A DNA stretch of 64,000 nucleotides from a phage: the sequence record PZ402300.1, one strand, 5' to 3'. How positions within the stretch are numbered: position 1 is the first letter of the stretch; each line of letters begins with the position of its first letter. Shown piece by piece: positions 33,471 to 64,000 of the stretch. Below the pieces are notes generated by a model. That model worked only from the letters and a program-made list of their open reading frames with translations. It had not been told where the DNA came from and did no database searches. A program made the position numbers and the translations under genes.

Positions 33471-33544
33471 TACCCACTACTGGATTTGAACCAGTGACCT
33501 TCCGATTATTAGTCGGTTGCTTTCCCCGTCTAAGCTAAGTGGGC
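33471..33544 (-). tRNA. tRNA, 74 nt, no encoded CCA; anticodon loop CUAAUAA (anticodon read as AAU)
   Basis: 7-bp acceptor stem, D-arm GCUU/AAGC, T-arm ACUGG-UUCAAAU-CCAGU folded by hand. Confidence 0.6.
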
Positions 33545-33549
33545 ATAAA

Positions 33550-33625
33550 TGGTTACCCGGACAGGATTCGAACCTGTGTCCTAGTTGGTTTACTAGTGGG
33601 GCTTTACCACTAAGCCTACCGGGTA
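33550..33625 (-). tRNA. tRNA-like gene with encoded CCA; anticodon arm atypical, isotype undetermined
   Basis: Perfect acceptor stem UACCCGG/CCGGGUA, D-arm GGCU/AGCC, T-arm ACAGG-UUCGAAU-CCUGU; anticodon stem is palindromic CUAG with 8-nt loop UAAACCAA. Confidence 0.5.
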
Positions 33626-60809: not shown

Positions 60810-60822
60810 CTAGTGGTGGGTT
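60793..60822 (-). terminator. rho-independent terminator
   Basis: aacccacc-tagt-ggtgggtt hairpin with poly-U on minus strand. Confidence 0.65.
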
Positions 60823-61036
60823 AGCTATTTACACAGTAAATAGCAAAAGCTATCCATCCTGTCATTACAAAGCAACCAAGTGAGTATGCCCCATAGTAGT
60901 AGTAAGCAAACTTAGACTTGTGGGCACGGACTATTGTAGTCAGAACCAGTACAGATAAAGCTATCAGTATTAACTGAAAGATTACTTCAAAAGTGATTAG
61001 CATAGTTGCTACCTCCAAGCAAAAAATATGCCTCAC
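60821..61036 (-). CDS. small membrane protein
   Basis: Two hydrophobic helices in 71 aa. Confidence 0.35.
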   Translation of the reverse strand: MRHIFCLEVATMLITFEVIFQLILIALSVLVLTTIVRAHKSKFAYYYYGAYSLGCFVMTGWIAFAIYCVNS

Positions 61037-61053
61037 TCCCGAAGGAATGAGGC
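61017..61053 (-). terminator. terminator after RNA polymerase gene
   Basis: gcctcactcc/ggaatgaggc imperfect hairpin with U-run on minus strand. Confidence 0.55.
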
Positions 61054-61060
61054 TAGTTTA

Positions 61061-61248
61061 TTAACTTAATGCATAATCTGTTTCAAGGATGTCCTGCCAG
61101 AGGCTGTCATCCAGCTTACCAGCAGAGAACTCTTGTCCCAGTACCTGAGTCAGGATGAATCCCAGTAAGTCACTCTTAGCAATGTCAGACAGAATCTGAT
61201 TGTACTGACGACGCAGGTCATTACCGTAGTTAGGATGGCATCTAAAAC
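61061..61248 (-). CDS. T7-like single-subunit RNA polymerase, exon 3 (C-terminal 62 codons)
   Basis: Spliced reading gives ...HD-CFRCHPNYGNDL...DILETDYALS, aligning with the T7 RNAP C-terminus HDSFGTIP...DILESDFAFA. Confidence 0.55.
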
Positions 61249-62216
61249 CATTAGTTAAACGAGTCGTTAGCTCGCCCTTACCTTCCATGATTAACATGGA
61301 AGCCATACGTAGCATCTGCTTCTTTACGAGCAAGCATTGCCTCCTCAAGTGTGTCATACGTACCCAGACCGATCTGTTTACGATTGACTGTGATGTGTGC
61401 CTGGAATCTACCAGAAGGTAATATTCTTACACCATTCACTTTGCTTGATGTATTACGTGATAAACCCATATTCATCTGGTTCTGTCTACTGGTTACATTT
61501 CTCAGATTAGACCAACGGTTGTCGTTTCTAATGTGATTGATGTGATCCACCTGGTTAGGTGTTTCCCCTGTTTCCATTATCCAGATTATTCGATGCAGTA
61601 AGTACTCTTTACGACCCAGACTAACAGATAAATAGCCTTCTTTGTGAGGATACCCCACAATTGTTCCGGCTAATCCACTAGCAGAGTCGTAACGATGAGT
61701 TACTAGCCCACTTTCTCTGTCATACCGTAAAACCTTCTTCAAAGATTCTTGGGTAATAGTATCCAAGTCTTTTATCAGGTTCTTACAGGTAGGACATAGG
61801 TGGCCTATTGGACTCTTTTTAGCATCATAGAAGTTGCAAACAAACTCACTAGAGCATTGCTTACAACTACAGATAGCTGTGTACTTACCAGTTTTACGTA
61901 ATATTTGGGAGTTATCTAACATATGGATTCCTTAGTAATTTTGCATACAATTTCAGATTGTATCCTAACCAAGGAAGTAAGTCTCCAGTTTTCACTGGAG
62001 TATCGGACTATATCATCACCCACTAATCAGTGGGGCAAGGCGCTTGGGTGGTCACTTGACTCACCTACTCTACTCACATACGAAATGTTTTCGATAGTCT
62101 CTGAACCTTCCCTCATGGAGGGCTTGGCTGCTGATTGGCATATCCATAGGACTTAGCTTTCCAGCAATTCACCTTGTTTTCGACACGGATTACTCCGTGA
62201 AGGATCATTTATGTTT
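61249..62216 (-). mobile_element. group I intron 2 with HNH-AP2 homing endonuclease ORF
   Basis: P gaattgctggaaag 62170-62156, Q aatcagcagcc 62136-62126, R gttcagagactatcg 62106-62092, S gatgatatagtccga 62017-62003; ends in G; boundaries +/- a few nt. Confidence 0.65.
61278..61922 (-). CDS. HNH homing endonuclease with AP2-like DNA-binding domain (intron-encoded)
   Basis: HNH motif DHINHIRNDNRWSNLR; AP2-like GVRILPSGRFQAHITVNRKQIGLGTYDTLEEA. Confidence 0.75.
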   Translation of the reverse strand: MLDNSQILRKTGKYTAICSCKQCSSEFVCNFYDAKKSPIGHLCPTCKNLIKDLDTITQESLKKVLRYDRESGLVTHRYDSASGLAGTIVGYPHKEGYLSVSLGRKEYLLHRIIWIMETGETPNQVDHINHIRNDNRWSNLRNVTSRQNQMNMGLSRNTSSKVNGVRILPSGRFQAHITVNRKQIGLGTYDTLEEAMLARKEADATYGFHVNHGR

Positions 62217-62824
62217 AATCATGTACAGTCATTACAGGGAATGGCTTCTTAGGTAAAGTATTGAGCATAGTCAGGATTACATCTGTATCAACCAATGCAA
62301 TGGTTTCTGAGTCCAGATAATCAAAGATACGGGTAGACAGAAAGCCTGATTTCTCATAGCTAGCCCACAGTGTATTAACCGTTTCATGACTAGCACCAGG
62401 GACAACTATGTATTCACCAGTTCCTTCACAGAGGGACTTAATATAGTTCACCTGGTTCACGTTGAAGTTACAACGACGCAGCATCTCACGTACCACCATC
62501 CCATCAATAGAGTGAGTGATGTTAGCAGAGAGCATACGGGTCTTCTCTTCAGTACCCTGAACCATACGAGTGATGTCGAATGGCTTACCTAAGAAGTTAA
62601 CAGTCTGTACTTCAGGAACCATGACCTTAATGACAGCATGGAAGTTGTCAGGAAGTACCCATACGTAACGGTTAGCATCAGGATTACCACATTGCAGTAA
62701 GAACTTGTTAAGTGCCCAAGGACCACTAGCAACAGTTTCCATTACATTCTCAAAAGTCTTGAGACGAATACCTTCACCGAATACTTCTTTAGGCTTGGCT
62801 TCTGAGCCGTAGAATGCAGTCATA
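62217..62824 (-). CDS. T7-like single-subunit RNA polymerase, exon 2 (motif B to catalytic HD)
   Basis: MTAFYGS aligns with T7 MTLAYGS; ends PVMTVHD aligning with T7 FALIHD; UAA stop sits at the junction. Confidence 0.65.
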
Positions 62825-63631
62825 CATTATGTTCAAGGGAGGTCGTTAGTCTCCCCCAGCAGCTTTACCTGCATCTCACTGTTACCAGTGAGTTCGGACT
62901 ATATCATCTAGACTGATAGTCTAGCCGGGCGCTTCGACCCACTTGGGCCTACTCTACTAAGTTCAGCTTTCGCTGCTTTTCGATAGTCTCTGCACCTTTT
63001 GGTTATTCAAAACAGCATCACACATATCAATAAAGTCATTGGTTGAGAGGTCACCCTTTGCTCGGTTTACACACCAAGCTAACCATTGAACATTACCAAT
63101 ACTGTATCCTTTACTTGGTTCTATCTGATCTAGTGATAGACACAAAGGATGCCCCGATTCAATTACTAAGGTTGCTCCAGTTAAAGCACATTTAAATTCC
63201 TGTGATTTAAGGATTTCAAATAAATACTCTACTGTACAATCTGGCATAGGCTTACCAAACTTTTTACACCGACTTCTTGCATCCTTTAGTCTATGGGAGA
63301 CTGCGGAATACCATTTACGGTGTTCTTTTGGTATTGCTTTACGAACTCCAGTTCCATTGTAACCTGGGTTCTTTTTACGCCATTCACGAGCTACAGCAGC
63401 CTTACAGGGTCTGCAACGATTCTCGTAATTAGTTTTGAATCCTGTGAGTGATTTTTTAGTCTCTGGGAATACTTCGATAGGAAGTAATTTTTTACATCGA
63501 CTACATGTTTTGAATTCTGACATAGAATGCTCCTTATTGAACTTTCTACGCTACCAACTTGGCTCATGATTGTCCACTAGGGATGTTCCATGAGTTCACC
63601 CGGTTTTAAGGCCGCCATGACTTAAAGGTTA
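62825..63631 (-). mobile_element. group I intron 1 with HNH homing endonuclease ORF
   Basis: P1: exon AGGCCGU pairs with GCGGCCU (63615-63609); P10 GUCAU/AUGAC; P gaactcatgg, Q caatcatgagcc, R 62996-62981, S 62908-62894; last nt G. Confidence 0.7.
62963..63523 (-). CDS. HNH-family homing endonuclease (intron-encoded)
   Basis: N-terminal CxxC...CxxC; C-terminal SLDQI..GY..GNVQWLAWCVNRAK motif; AAGGAG RBS. Confidence 0.65.
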   Translation of the reverse strand: MSEFKTCSRCKKLLPIEVFPETKKSLTGFKTNYENRCRPCKAAVAREWRKKNPGYNGTGVRKAIPKEHRKWYSAVSHRLKDARSRCKKFGKPMPDCTVEYLFEILKSQEFKCALTGATLVIESGHPLCLSLDQIEPSKGYSIGNVQWLAWCVNRAKGDLSTNDFIDMCDAVLNNQKVQRLSKSSES

Positions 63632-64000
63632 ACGGCCTGCTTAGTGTCACTACGCTTAATACGTGATGCTTCACCAAGGATGTCCAGCATCTTGTGATAG
63701 ATAACTGTATAGGCATCACGGCGTAATGGCTTACCATTCTCATCCATGTAGTTAACTACGTTACACAGTTCAGCAGCAGAGCGGTCACCAGTCAGACAGG
63801 CCAGTAACTGTAAGCCTGATGATGTAGCATCCAGAGCTACAGCATAACCAATAGGCTTACCTGCTTTCATATCTTTCCATGCATTTACACCTGCAAAGAA
63901 CAGAGCAGAATCCTCTGCTTCATCTACCAGATTAAGCAGGTTAGCTTCATTCTCATCGAACCAGGCAATACGTTCATCCCATGTCTTTTTATCTAAGCCA
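63632..64000 (-). CDS. T7-like single-subunit RNA polymerase, exon 1 (partial; continues beyond window end)
   Basis: LDATSSGLQLLA aligns with T7 FDGSCSGIQHFSA; RSDTKQAV aligns with T7 RSVTKRSV. Confidence 0.65.

What the first reader, a model, noticed from the sequence alone, without database searches (positions are those of the whole stretch)
61990..63000. The two intron cores are paralogous with compensatory changes
R (GUUCAGAGACUAUCG vs GGUGCAGAGACUAUCG) and S (GAUGAUAUAGUCCGA in both) are nearly identical. The P/Q helix differs by covarying substitutions (GCUGG/CAGC vs CAUGG/CAUG) and a hairpin between R and S changes from cccact..agtggg to ctagact..agtctag while keeping pairing. This supports functional RNA structure and a shared origin, while the endonuclease genes are of different types and in different positions.
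Basis: seen in the sequence. Interest (0 to 1): 0.6.

Follow-up and report, generated by a model that had tools for sequence, protein, structure and literature searches.

The report
Two independent introns in phage RNAP2
A phage RNA polymerase gene is interrupted by two self-splicing-type group I introns that share a fold and distant ancestry, but they arrived independently and are not copies of each other, which is ordinary biology for phages.

Summary
On the minus strand, the RNAP2 gene (T7-like RNA polymerase) of a G7C-like E. coli phage carries two group I introns: intron 1 (62216..61249) and intron 2 (63631..62825). Removing them gives a reading frame that matches an intron-less allele without gaps.

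The quoted R, S, P/Q (P4) and hairpin (P8) strings are all present. Over 45 shared base pairs, 27 are identical, 2 differ on one side, 16 differ on both sides, and none is broken. Across 13 related introns, 99.3% of pair cells are standard pairs, against 71% in shuffles.

"Paralogous" is only partly right:
- The two cores are 65-71% identical, and each has closer relatives elsewhere (78-81%). Some of these sit at the same RNAP2 site in other phage genera, and others are in DNA polymerase genes.
- In 0 of 500 bootstrap trees are the two introns sisters.
- All four presence/absence states exist in public data.
- In a Salmonella-associated contig both introns are 95-96% identical to the window's, while the exons are only 73-83% identical.

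These are therefore two separately mobile lineages of one phage intron subfamily. Their endonucleases belong to different families (HNH_3+AP2 in P9.1; a family with no Pfam match but an HNH-like fold in P6a). This is a new member of a known kind. Splicing and homing are inferred, not tested.

The parts
63632..64000 (-). RNAP2 exon 1 (runs off the window end). It ends ...AAG CAG GCC GU, inside T7-RNAP-like motif B (TKQAV|MTAFYGS).
   Evidence: Pfam RNA_pol PF00940 hit. Gap-free colinearity with the intron-less HK2 allele.
62825..63631 (-). Intron 2, a group I intron of 807 nt. The 5' splice site follows the U of a U.G pair in P1 (AGGCCGU/GCGGCCU). The last base is G. P10 is 7 bp (UAUGACU/AGUCAUG). 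There is no P2.
   Evidence: Orthologues sit at the same site in Burkholderia HN02, Achromobacter JWAlpha, and Vibrio pVco-5 and phi 1.
63553..63631 (-). Intron 2 5' core: internal guide sequence, P3 5' strand (63597-63603), P4 5' strand (P; 63588-63593), P5, P4 3' strand (Q; 63564-63569), P6 5' strand, P6a 5' strand.
62963..63523 (-). Intron 2 endonuclease ORF (186 aa), looped out of P6a. It has a CxxC...CxxC zinc finger and an HNH-like fold without the canonical His (SLDQ...N...N). Its last 13 codons (from 63003) overlap P6a', P6', R/P7 and P7.1.
62825..63003 (-). Intron 2 3' core: P6a', P6', R (62981-62996), P7, P7.1, P7.2 (62936-62949), P3' (62925-62931), P8 (62908-62924), S (62894-62908), P9 (62875-62892), P9.1, P9.2 (62837-62855), terminal G at 62825.
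62217..62824 (-). RNAP2 exon 2 (UAUGACU... to ...CAUGAUU).
61249..62216 (-). Intron 1, a group I intron of 968 nt. It is inserted after the first base of the codon that follows the catalytic HD of motif C (VHD|CF). P1 is GAUU/GAUC with a U.G pair, P10 is GUUU/AAAU, and the terminal G is at 61249.
   Evidence: Rfam RF00028 at 92.8 bits.. The same intron occurs in ZQ2 and Moonfish at 99%. The same site is occupied in ZC08, and a site 3 nt downstream in MIF8.
61983..62216 (-). Intron 1 contiguous core P1-P9: P2 62184-62199, P3 62170-62176 / 62036-62042, P4 62161-62166 / 62129-62134, R 62092-62106, P7.2 62047-62065, P8 62019-62034, S 62003-62017, P9 61983-62000.
61278..61922 (-). Intron 1 endonuclease ORF (214 aa, HNH_3 + AP2) in the loop of P9.1. 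Its stop codon lies in the P9.1 3' strand.
   Evidence: Pfam HNH_3 at 1e-15 and AP2 at 1.4e-4, the latter below its cut-off. phrog_99 at 1e-58. Orthologues in Moonfish, MIF8 and ZC08.
61249..61286 (-). Intron 1 3' end: P9.1 3' strand (61277-61286, pairing with 61973-61981), P9.2 hairpin with a CUAACGA loop (61259-61275), terminal G.
   Evidence: cofold and coordinates. The matching strands can be read in MIF8 (CUUCAUG/CAUGAAG) and ZC08 (CUACCUG/CAGGUAG).
61061..61248 (-). RNAP2 exon 3 (GUUUUAGAUGC... to the stop codon).

Best explanation
The window comes from a Gamaleyavirus-like (G7C-like, N4-family) coliphage. Its RNAP2 gene encodes the catalytic subunit of the T7-like middle-gene RNA polymerase and is interrupted twice by group I introns that have P7.1/P7.2 helices (the IA2-type architecture). 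Intron 2 sits in motif B and intron 1 in motif C.

Both introns fold into the canonical core: P3-P9, the P3/P7 pseudoknot, a U.G pair at the 5' splice site, a 3'-terminal G, and P10. They are expected to splice themselves out of the mRNA and restore one continuous RNAP2 reading frame. Each carries its own homing endonuclease gene, which would cut intron-less alleles in co-infecting relatives and copy the intron in by recombinational repair.

The two cores are homologous, members of one widespread phage intron subfamily. They belong to two separate lineages that diverged long before reaching this genome and invaded the gene independently. The compensatory changes between them are the normal signature of a conserved ribozyme fold, not of a local duplication.

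Shown here: sequence, structure, covariation, exon colinearity, presence/absence polymorphism, and introns more conserved than exons. Inferred: self-splicing, endonuclease activity and homing.
For: - **Intron identity.** Rfam RF00028 matches intron 1 over the full model at 92.8 bits. Intron 2's ORF-free relative in Aeromonas phage AS-gz scores 73.8 bits and is 79-80% identical to intron 2's core.
- **Splice junctions.** The predicted junctions give a frame colinear, without gaps, with the intron-less HK2 allele.
- **Helix comparison.** Across the two introns, 45 pairs: 27 identical, 2 changed on one side, 16 changed on both sides, 0 broken.
- **Family covariation.** In 13 introns, 99.3% of 559 pair cells are standard pairs, against 71% in shuffles and 30-37% with slid partners. 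29 of 43 pairs carry compensatory changes. P3, P4 and P6, which were aligned by sequence anchors alone, are 100% paired.
- **Close relatives.** They change helices only in pairing-preserving ways: P9 A-U to G-C, P9 G-C to G.U, P9.2 G-C to A-U.
- **Exon covariation.** Synonymous exon bases track intron presence so as to keep P1 and P10 paired: GCC versus GCT/GCA at the intron 2 site, and GAT T|GT TTT versus GAC T|GC TTC at the intron 1 site.
- **Separate lineages.**
  - Intron 1 against intron 2 is 65-71% identical. Intron 1 against MIF8 is 80%. Intron 2 against HN02, JWAlpha and AS-gz is 78-81%.
  - They are sisters in 0 of 500 bootstrap trees.
- **Same-site orthologues in other Schitoviridae genera**.
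- **Mobility.**
  - Alleles exist with neither intron (HK2), intron 1 only (Moonfish, ZQ2), intron 2 only (L015, L016, L020, L021) and both (window, L018).
  - In L018 the introns are 96.4% and 95.1% identical to the window's, while the exons are 78%, 73% and 83% identical.
- **Endonucleases.** They belong to different families. Intron 2's ORF differs from metagenome copies mostly at synonymous sites.
Against: - No experiment shows splicing or homing.
- Intron 2 falls below Rfam's gathering score on the native sequence (36 bits), because the ORF splits it.
- The alignments of the hairpin segments P5, P7.1, P7.2, P8 and P9 were fitted to per-sequence folds. Their pair counts therefore lean towards the structure.
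- The tree rests on about 200 columns and 13 sequences. Some internal nodes are weak, and the placement of pVco-5/phi 1 is ambiguous: they are 72% identical to intron 1 and 67% to intron 2, yet sit at the intron 2 site.
- Intron 2's endonuclease lacks the canonical catalytic His (D-Q instead of D-H), so its activity is uncertain.
- High exon identity right next to the junctions may reflect conserved catalytic motifs rather than co-conversion.
Confidence: 0.85

Rival explanations
1. True paralogues. One intron gave rise to the other by ectopic transposition or duplication within this gene or phage lineage, and the copies then diverged and swapped endonuclease genes.
For: - The two introns share a gene, a fold and idiosyncratic peripheral motifs: AGUAGAGUAGG, the P7.2 AAGU loop, and the P9.2 UAACGA loop.
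- Core similarity is z=10.8.
Against: - Each intron is closer to introns in other phage genera and in other genes (78-81%) than to its neighbour (65-71%).
- They are sisters in 0 of 500 bootstrap trees.
- Cross-clade identity is no higher for the pair sharing a genome (65%) than for other cross-clade pairs (58-68%).
- Each lineage occupies its own site across several Schitoviridae genera.
- Each occurs alone in close relatives.
- They differ in P2, P5, P7.2 and ORF position.
Confidence: 0.05
2. Decayed intron remnants or plain endonuclease insertions. On this view RNAP2 is a 'gene in pieces' whose fragments are translated separately, as database annotations and the JWAlpha and ZC08 papers assume, and the RNA similarity is a relic.
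For: - GenBank records annotate separate RNAP2 fragments.
- PMC3915230 asks whether the interrupted JWAlpha RNAP2 is still functional.
- PMC5418858 describes an endonuclease insertion in ZC08 RNAP2.
Against: - Every core helix is intact in both introns.
- The U.G pair, the terminal G and P10 are all present.
- Exon synonymous sites track P1/P10 pairing.
- The cores evolve more slowly than the ORFs, and only by pairing-preserving changes.
- The breaks fall inside catalytic motifs B and C, with in-frame stops immediately after the 5' splice sites. Separate fragments would split the active site.
Confidence: 0.07
3. The similarity reflects only the constraints common to all group I introns (convergence on R, S and P7), with no specific common ancestry.
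For: R, S and P7 are identical in all 13 compared introns, so they carry no lineage signal.
Against: The two introns share non-universal peripheral elements and junction sequences beyond the catalytic core: P7.1/P7.2 placement, AGUAGAGUAGG, GAAGCGC, and the P9.2 loop. Both fall within one BLAST-connected family of phage introns.
Confidence: 0.03

Closest known systems
T4-type phage group I introns (td, nrdB, nrdD/sunY; subgroup IA2) with homing endonucleases
   Same: The core is the same, with P7.1/P7.2 between P7 and P3'. The ORF is looped out of P6a (as in td and nrdB) or out of the P9 region (as in sunY). The introns sit in highly conserved sites of an essential enzyme gene, with in-frame stops just inside the intron and presence/absence polymorphism among relatives. 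The comparison with T4 rests on my own knowledge; the architecture here is shown.
   Different: The host gene is a T7-like RNA polymerase subunit of an N4-family podophage. The endonucleases are HNH-type (HNH_3+AP2, and a family with no Pfam match), not the GIY-YIG I-TevI/II. T4 sequences were not aligned here.
Group I introns in phage DNA polymerase genes (Felixounavirus, Pakpunavirus, Aeromonas T4-like, T7-like phages)
   Same: They belong to the same intron subfamily by sequence. pSJ21/VpaE1 cluster with intron 1 (70-75%). AS-gz and PaGz-1 cluster with intron 2 (79-80% and 65-71%).
   Different: The host gene and insertion site differ. Some are ORF-less (pSJ21, AS-gz), and others carry an endonuclease VII-type ORF in P6a (VpaE1, PaGz-1).
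Multi-intron phage genes (Staphylococcus phage Twort nrdE and orf142; SPO1-like DNA polymerase)
   Same: Several group I introns lie in one essential gene, each with or without its own endonuclease. Twort is cited via the reference list of PMC5418858.
   Different: The phage family and the gene are different.
Interrupted RNAP2 genes annotated in JWAlpha/JWDelta, ZC08, pVco-5, phi 1, HN02, MIF8, ZQ2 and Moonfish
   Same: These are the same two intron lineages at the same (or, for MIF8, a 3-nt shifted) sites.
   Different: They are annotated as split genes or endonuclease insertions, not as introns. None of these records carries both introns. The both-intron state was seen only in the window and in contig JANDFC010000012.1.

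Membership tests
Group I intron (Rfam RF00028) | Covariance-model match at or above the gathering score | tested here: met
   Intron 1 scores 92.8 bits against a cut-off of 50. Intron 2 scores 36 bits on the native, ORF-split sequence, so it is not met for intron 2 taken alone. Its ORF-free relative AS-gz scores 73.8 bits.
Group I intron (Rfam RF00028) | Conserved core helices P3, P4, P6, P7, P8 and P9 with the P3/P7 pseudoknot, supported by covariation | tested here: met
   All helices pair in both introns. At family level, 99.3% of cells are paired and 29 of 43 pairs show compensatory change.
Group I intron (Rfam RF00028) | U.G pair at the 5' splice site in P1, terminal G at the 3' end, and P10 with the 3' exon | tested here: met
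   Intron 1: GAUU/GAUC, G at 61249, P10 GUUU/AAAU. Intron 2: AGGCCGU/GCGGCCU, G at 62825, P10 of 7 bp. These are read. Exon bases covary with intron presence.
Group I intron (Rfam RF00028) | GTP-dependent self-splicing | not testable with these tools
   This needs in vitro transcription and splicing, or RT-PCR.
Subgroup IA2-type architecture | Extra helices P7.1 and P7.2 between P7 and P3' | tested here: met
   Both introns and all 11 relatives have two hairpins in this position. The definition of the subgroup is from my own knowledge.
Intragenomic paralogues (duplicate copies) | The two copies are each other's closest relatives | tested here: not met
   The two are 65-71% identical, against 78-81% to introns elsewhere. 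They are sisters in 0 of 500 bootstrap trees.
Mobile (homing) intron | Presence/absence polymorphism at an identical site among close relatives | tested here: met
   Four allelic states were found.
Mobile (homing) intron | Intron more conserved than the flanking host gene between diverged genomes | tested here: met
   L018: introns 96.4% and 95.1% identical, exons 78%, 73% and 83%.
Mobile (homing) intron | Endonuclease cleaves the intron-less allele near the insertion site | not testable with these tools
   This needs a cleavage assay or phage crosses.
HNH homing endonuclease (Pfam HNH_3) | HNH_3 domain above the cut-off (intron 1 ORF) | tested here: met
   57.5 bits against a cut-off of 24.8. 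AP2 at 22.5 bits is below its 33.3 cut-off.
HNH / beta-beta-alpha-Me nuclease (intron 2 ORF) | beta-beta-alpha-Me fold | tested here: inconclusive
   [not shown]
HNH / beta-beta-alpha-Me nuclease (intron 2 ORF) | Canonical D-H general-base histidine | tested here: not met
   The family has invariant S130, D132, N144 and N153, but Q or K follows D132.

The most novel reading that the evidence does not exclude
The two introns may be an actively spreading pair. Both moved recently between diverged Gamaleyavirus-like phages of E. coli and Salmonella (95-96% intron identity against 73-83% exon identity). Each targets a catalytic motif of the middle-gene RNA polymerase. Together they could act as weapons in co-infection, cutting the RNAP2 gene of intron-less competitors, as reported for a jumbo-phage RNAP intron. 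Intron 2's nuclease would then be a new HNH-fold homing endonuclease family that works without the canonical catalytic histidine.
Probability: 0.3. Interest if true: 0.6.

Novelty: new member of a known kind. Interest (0 to 1): 0.35.

Why it matters
- **Annotation.** RNAP2 in many N4-family phages is annotated as two or three gene fragments. That includes ZQ2, Moonfish, MIF8, ZC08, JWAlpha/JWDelta, HN02, pVco-5 and phi 1. One paper asked whether the JWAlpha gene still works. Recognising two group I intron lineages answers that question and lets the full-length polymerase be annotated.
- **A natural test system.** All four intron states occur in closely related coliphages, which makes intron homing and intron-mediated phage competition directly testable.
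- **For the finding as stated.** Compensatory changes between two group I introns are expected textbook behaviour, and the 'paralogue' reading is not borne out.

Tried and rejected
- **Plain MAFFT alignments of the ORF-less cores** misaligned P7.2, P3' and P9. I replaced them with an anchor- and fold-guided alignment, imported by filling gaps with N.
I used its ORF-free relative AS-gz instead.
- **Exact-sequence look-up of intron 2's ORF** found nothing.
- **The IMG/VR pattern scan** returned only JWAlpha itself.
- **PDB sequence searches for intron 2's ORF** gave no credible hit; PacI appeared at E=0.044 only.
- **The single-sequence AF2 model** was useless, with pLDDT 45.
- **A link between intron 1's HNH and the free-standing endonuclease between RNAP1 and RNAP2 in HK2** was tested. 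There is no similarity.
- **Remote homology between the two intron endonucleases** was tested by BLASTP and hhalign. None was found beyond a chance CxxC match.
- **Homogenisation (gene conversion) between the two introns in one genome** was considered and rejected. Their identity (65%) lies within the range of other cross-clade pairs (58-68%).
- **A whole-window Rfam scan at a relaxed threshold** found no further intron.
Full report
**What is there.** The region lies on the minus strand of a Gamaleyavirus-like (G7C-like, Schitoviridae/N4-family) coliphage. A megablast of 61000-64000 finds about 60 such phages at 90-96% identity, but only over about 1.2 kb of exon sequence, annotated 'RNA polymerase RNAP2'. 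Rfam finds a full-length group I intron at 62226..61983 (92.8 bits, E=1.5e-22). At a relaxed threshold it finds a second, broken match at 63147..62875 plus a fragment at 63593..63537.

Reading the sequence gives these parts:
- exon 1: ..63632
- intron 2: 63631..62825 (807 nt)
- exon 2: 62824..62217
- intron 1: 62216..61249 (968 nt)
- exon 3: 61248..61061

Joining the exons gives one open frame...RSDTKQAV|MTAFYGSE... and ...MTVHD|CFRCHPNYG.... This frame is colinear, without a single gap, with the uninterrupted 405-aa RNAP2 of phage HK2. From my own knowledge of T7 RNA polymerase, the two sites fall in motif B (RSVTKRSVMTLAYGS) and directly after the catalytic HD of motif C.

**Check of the observation.** R and S are nearly identical in both introns. 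The P/Q helix (P4) is UGCUGG/UCAGCA in intron 1 and UCAUGG/UCAUGA in intron 2. The hairpin between R and S is P8, CCCACU..AGUGGG versus CUAGACU..AGUCUAG. The span given (61990-63000) misses the 5' half of intron 2, which is where its P/Q elements lie (63564-63593).

**Structure.**
- *Splice-site features.* Both introns have a U.G pair at the 5' splice site, a terminal G, and a P10 pairing with the 3' exon.
- *The two introns compared.* Helix by helix there are 45 shared pairs: 27 identical, 2 changed on one side, 16 changed on both sides, none broken.
- *The family.* I assembled 13 ORF-less cores: the window's two introns, ZQ2, Moonfish, MIF8, ZC08, pSJ21, HN02, JWAlpha, pVco-5, phi 1, PaGz-1 and AS-gz. 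P3, P4, P6, P7 and P9 pair in essentially every sequence. The segments for P5, P7.1, P7.2, P8 and P9 each fold on their own into the expected hairpin.
- *Pair counts.* On the structural alignment A4, 99.3% of 559 pair cells are standard pairs. This compares with 71% in shuffles and 30-37% when the partners are slid. 29 of 43 pairs carry changes on both sides, and the covariation score is 0.729 against 0.156.
- *Caveat.* The hairpin segments were aligned using per-sequence folds, so those counts are biased towards the structure. P3, P4 and P6 were aligned by sequence anchors only, and they are still 100% paired, with three compensatory pairs each.
- *Close relatives.* Substitutions in the cores are few. 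Those in helices preserve pairing: P9 A-U to G-C in ZQ2, P9 G-C to G.U in Moonfish and L018, and P9.2 G-C to A-U in L015.

**Are they paralogues?** The ORF-less cores are 65% (alignment-based) to 71% (pairwise) identical, well above chance (z=10.8). Each intron nevertheless has closer relatives elsewhere.
- Intron 1 is 99% identical to the introns of ZQ2 and Moonfish. It is 80% identical to that of Erwinia phage MIF8, 73% to Pseudomonas phage ZC08, and 70-75% to Felixounavirus DNA polymerase introns.
- Intron 2 is 78-81% identical to introns of Burkholderia phage HN02, Achromobacter phage JWAlpha and Aeromonas phage AS-gz (DNA polymerase).
- A neighbour-joining tree separates two clades. In 0 of 500 bootstrap replicates are the window's two introns exclusive sisters.
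- Their identity is no higher than that of other cross-clade pairs (58-68%), so there is no sign of homogenisation within the genome.
- The architectures differ. Intron 1 has P2, a long P5 and a bulged 7-bp P7.2, and its ORF sits in the loop of P9.1. Intron 2 has no P2, a 3-bp P5 and a 5-bp P7.2, and its ORF sits in P6a.

What the two share beyond the universal core is a set of peripheral elements: UCGAAA after P7, AGUAGAGUAGG, the AAGU loop of P7.2, GAAGCGC, and a terminal P9.2 hairpin with a UAACGA loop. These mark a common phage intron subfamily with P7.1/P7.2 (IA2-type). 'Shared origin' therefore holds at subfamily level, while 'paralogous copies' does not.

**Same-site orthologues and mobility.**
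- *Intron 1 type.* It occupies the motif C site in ZC08, and a site 3 nt downstream in MIF8.
- *Intron 2 type.* It occupies the motif B site in HN02, JWAlpha, pVco-5 and phi 1.
- *Allelic states among Gamaleyavirus-like sequences.* All four exist:
  - neither intron (HK2 and most isolates);
  - intron 1 only (Moonfish, ZQ2);
  - intron 2 only (metagenome contigs L015, L016, L020, L021);
  - both (the window, and the 74.8-kb contig JANDFC010000012.1, L018).
- *Introns versus exons.* In L018 the introns are 96.4% and 95.1% identical to the window's. The exons are only 78%, 73% and 83% identical, and the spliced protein 76%. This is the classic signature of recent horizontal intron spread.
- *Exon bases that track the introns.* Alleles with intron 2 have GCC GU|U, which completes P1 (AGGCCGU/GCGGCCU), where others have GCU or GCA. 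Alleles with intron 1 have GAU U|GU UUU, which fits P1 (GAUU/GAUC) and P10 (GUUU/AAAU), where others have GAC U|GC UUC.

**Endonucleases.**
- *Intron 1's ORF (214 aa).* It is HNH_3 plus an AP2-like domain (Pfam; phrog_99 at 1e-58). Orthologues occur in Moonfish, MIF8 and ZC08.
- *Intron 2's ORF (186 aa).*
  - It has no Pfam or NCBIfam hit, but it matches phrog_1035 'endonuclease VII'.
  - It has 159 homologues, none with a Pfam domain.
  - The family conserves CxxC...CxxC and S-x-D...N...N but lacks the usual His after the Asp.
  - Against metagenome copies it shows 44-47 nucleotide differences but only 10-11 amino-acid differences, which suggests purifying selection.
- *The two compared.* They show no detectable similarity to each other. 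They are different families, probably of one fold superfamily.

**Literature.** In the searchable library I found no description of group I introns in N4-family RNAP2. [quoted passage not shown] The ZC08 paper describes a homing endonuclease inserted in RNAP2 (PMC5418858). Group I introns with homing endonucleases in conserved phage genes, including several in one gene, are well known.

**Verdict.** The 'paralogous' interpretation is only partly supported. These are two independently acquired, separately mobile members of one phage group I intron subfamily, each with its own endonuclease family. Splicing and homing are inferred, not tested. This is a new member of a known kind, with modest interest: it corrects annotation and offers a tidy natural system with all four intron states.

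Noticed in passing
L004 (Erwinia phage MIF8) 2480-3520, compared with window 62217/61248: The MIF8 intron is 80% identical in core to intron 1 and carries an orthologous HNH. It is inserted 3 nt downstream of the window and ZC08 site: HDA-F(U|UC) versus HD-C(U|GU). Its guide sequence is adapted accordingly (GCGUAA/UUGCGC).
   Followed up: partly
window 62963-63003 (-): The last 13 codons of intron 2's endonuclease (NNQKVQRLSKSSES) are encoded by P6a', P6', R/P7 and P7.1 of the ribozyme core. The peptide QKVQRLSK is conserved in HN02, JWAlpha, pVco-5 and phi 1, evidently because the RNA is conserved (dual coding).
   Followed up: partly
window 61277-61286 with 61973-61981 (-): The stop codon of intron 1's HNH ORF lies inside the 3' strand of P9.1. 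The equivalent helix reads CUUCAUG/CAUGAAG in MIF8 and CUACCUG/CAGGUAG in ZC08, and it also contains their stop codons.
   Followed up: partly
window 62217-62824 (exon 2), compared with L002, L003 and L001: Exon 2 is 95% identical to intron-less HK2 but only 80-82% identical to Moonfish and ZQ2, which share intron 1 at 99%. Exon and intron histories are therefore mosaic.
   Followed up: no
L008, L009 (Vibrio phages pVco-5, phi 1): These introns sit at the intron 2 site and carry an intron 2-type endonuclease in P6a. Yet they have a P2 and a long P5, and their cores are about as close to intron 1 (72%) as to intron 2 (67%). This suggests that core and endonuclease have been shuffled.
   Followed up: no
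L012 versus L013 (Felixounavirus DNA polymerase introns): pSJ21 and VpaE1 have identical intron cores. Only VpaE1 has a 524-nt insert with an endonuclease VII-type ORF in P6a, so ORF gain or loss is independent of the ribozyme.
   Followed up: no
window 61259-61275 and 62837-62855 (-); the same element occurs in all relatives: The terminal P9.2 hairpin has variable stems but a conserved loop (UAACGA/UUAACGAC) in both lineages. That implies a tertiary contact, but I did not identify the partner.
   Followed up: no
L018 6019-6507: The both-intron Salmonella-associated contig has an extra HNH_3 ORF (162 aa) just downstream of RNAP2. The window has only a 71-aa ORF in that position (60821-61036).
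   Followed up: no
window 33471-33625 (-): There are two adjacent tRNA genes (Rfam 64.8 and 42 bits).
   Followed up: no
[not shown]
   Followed up: no
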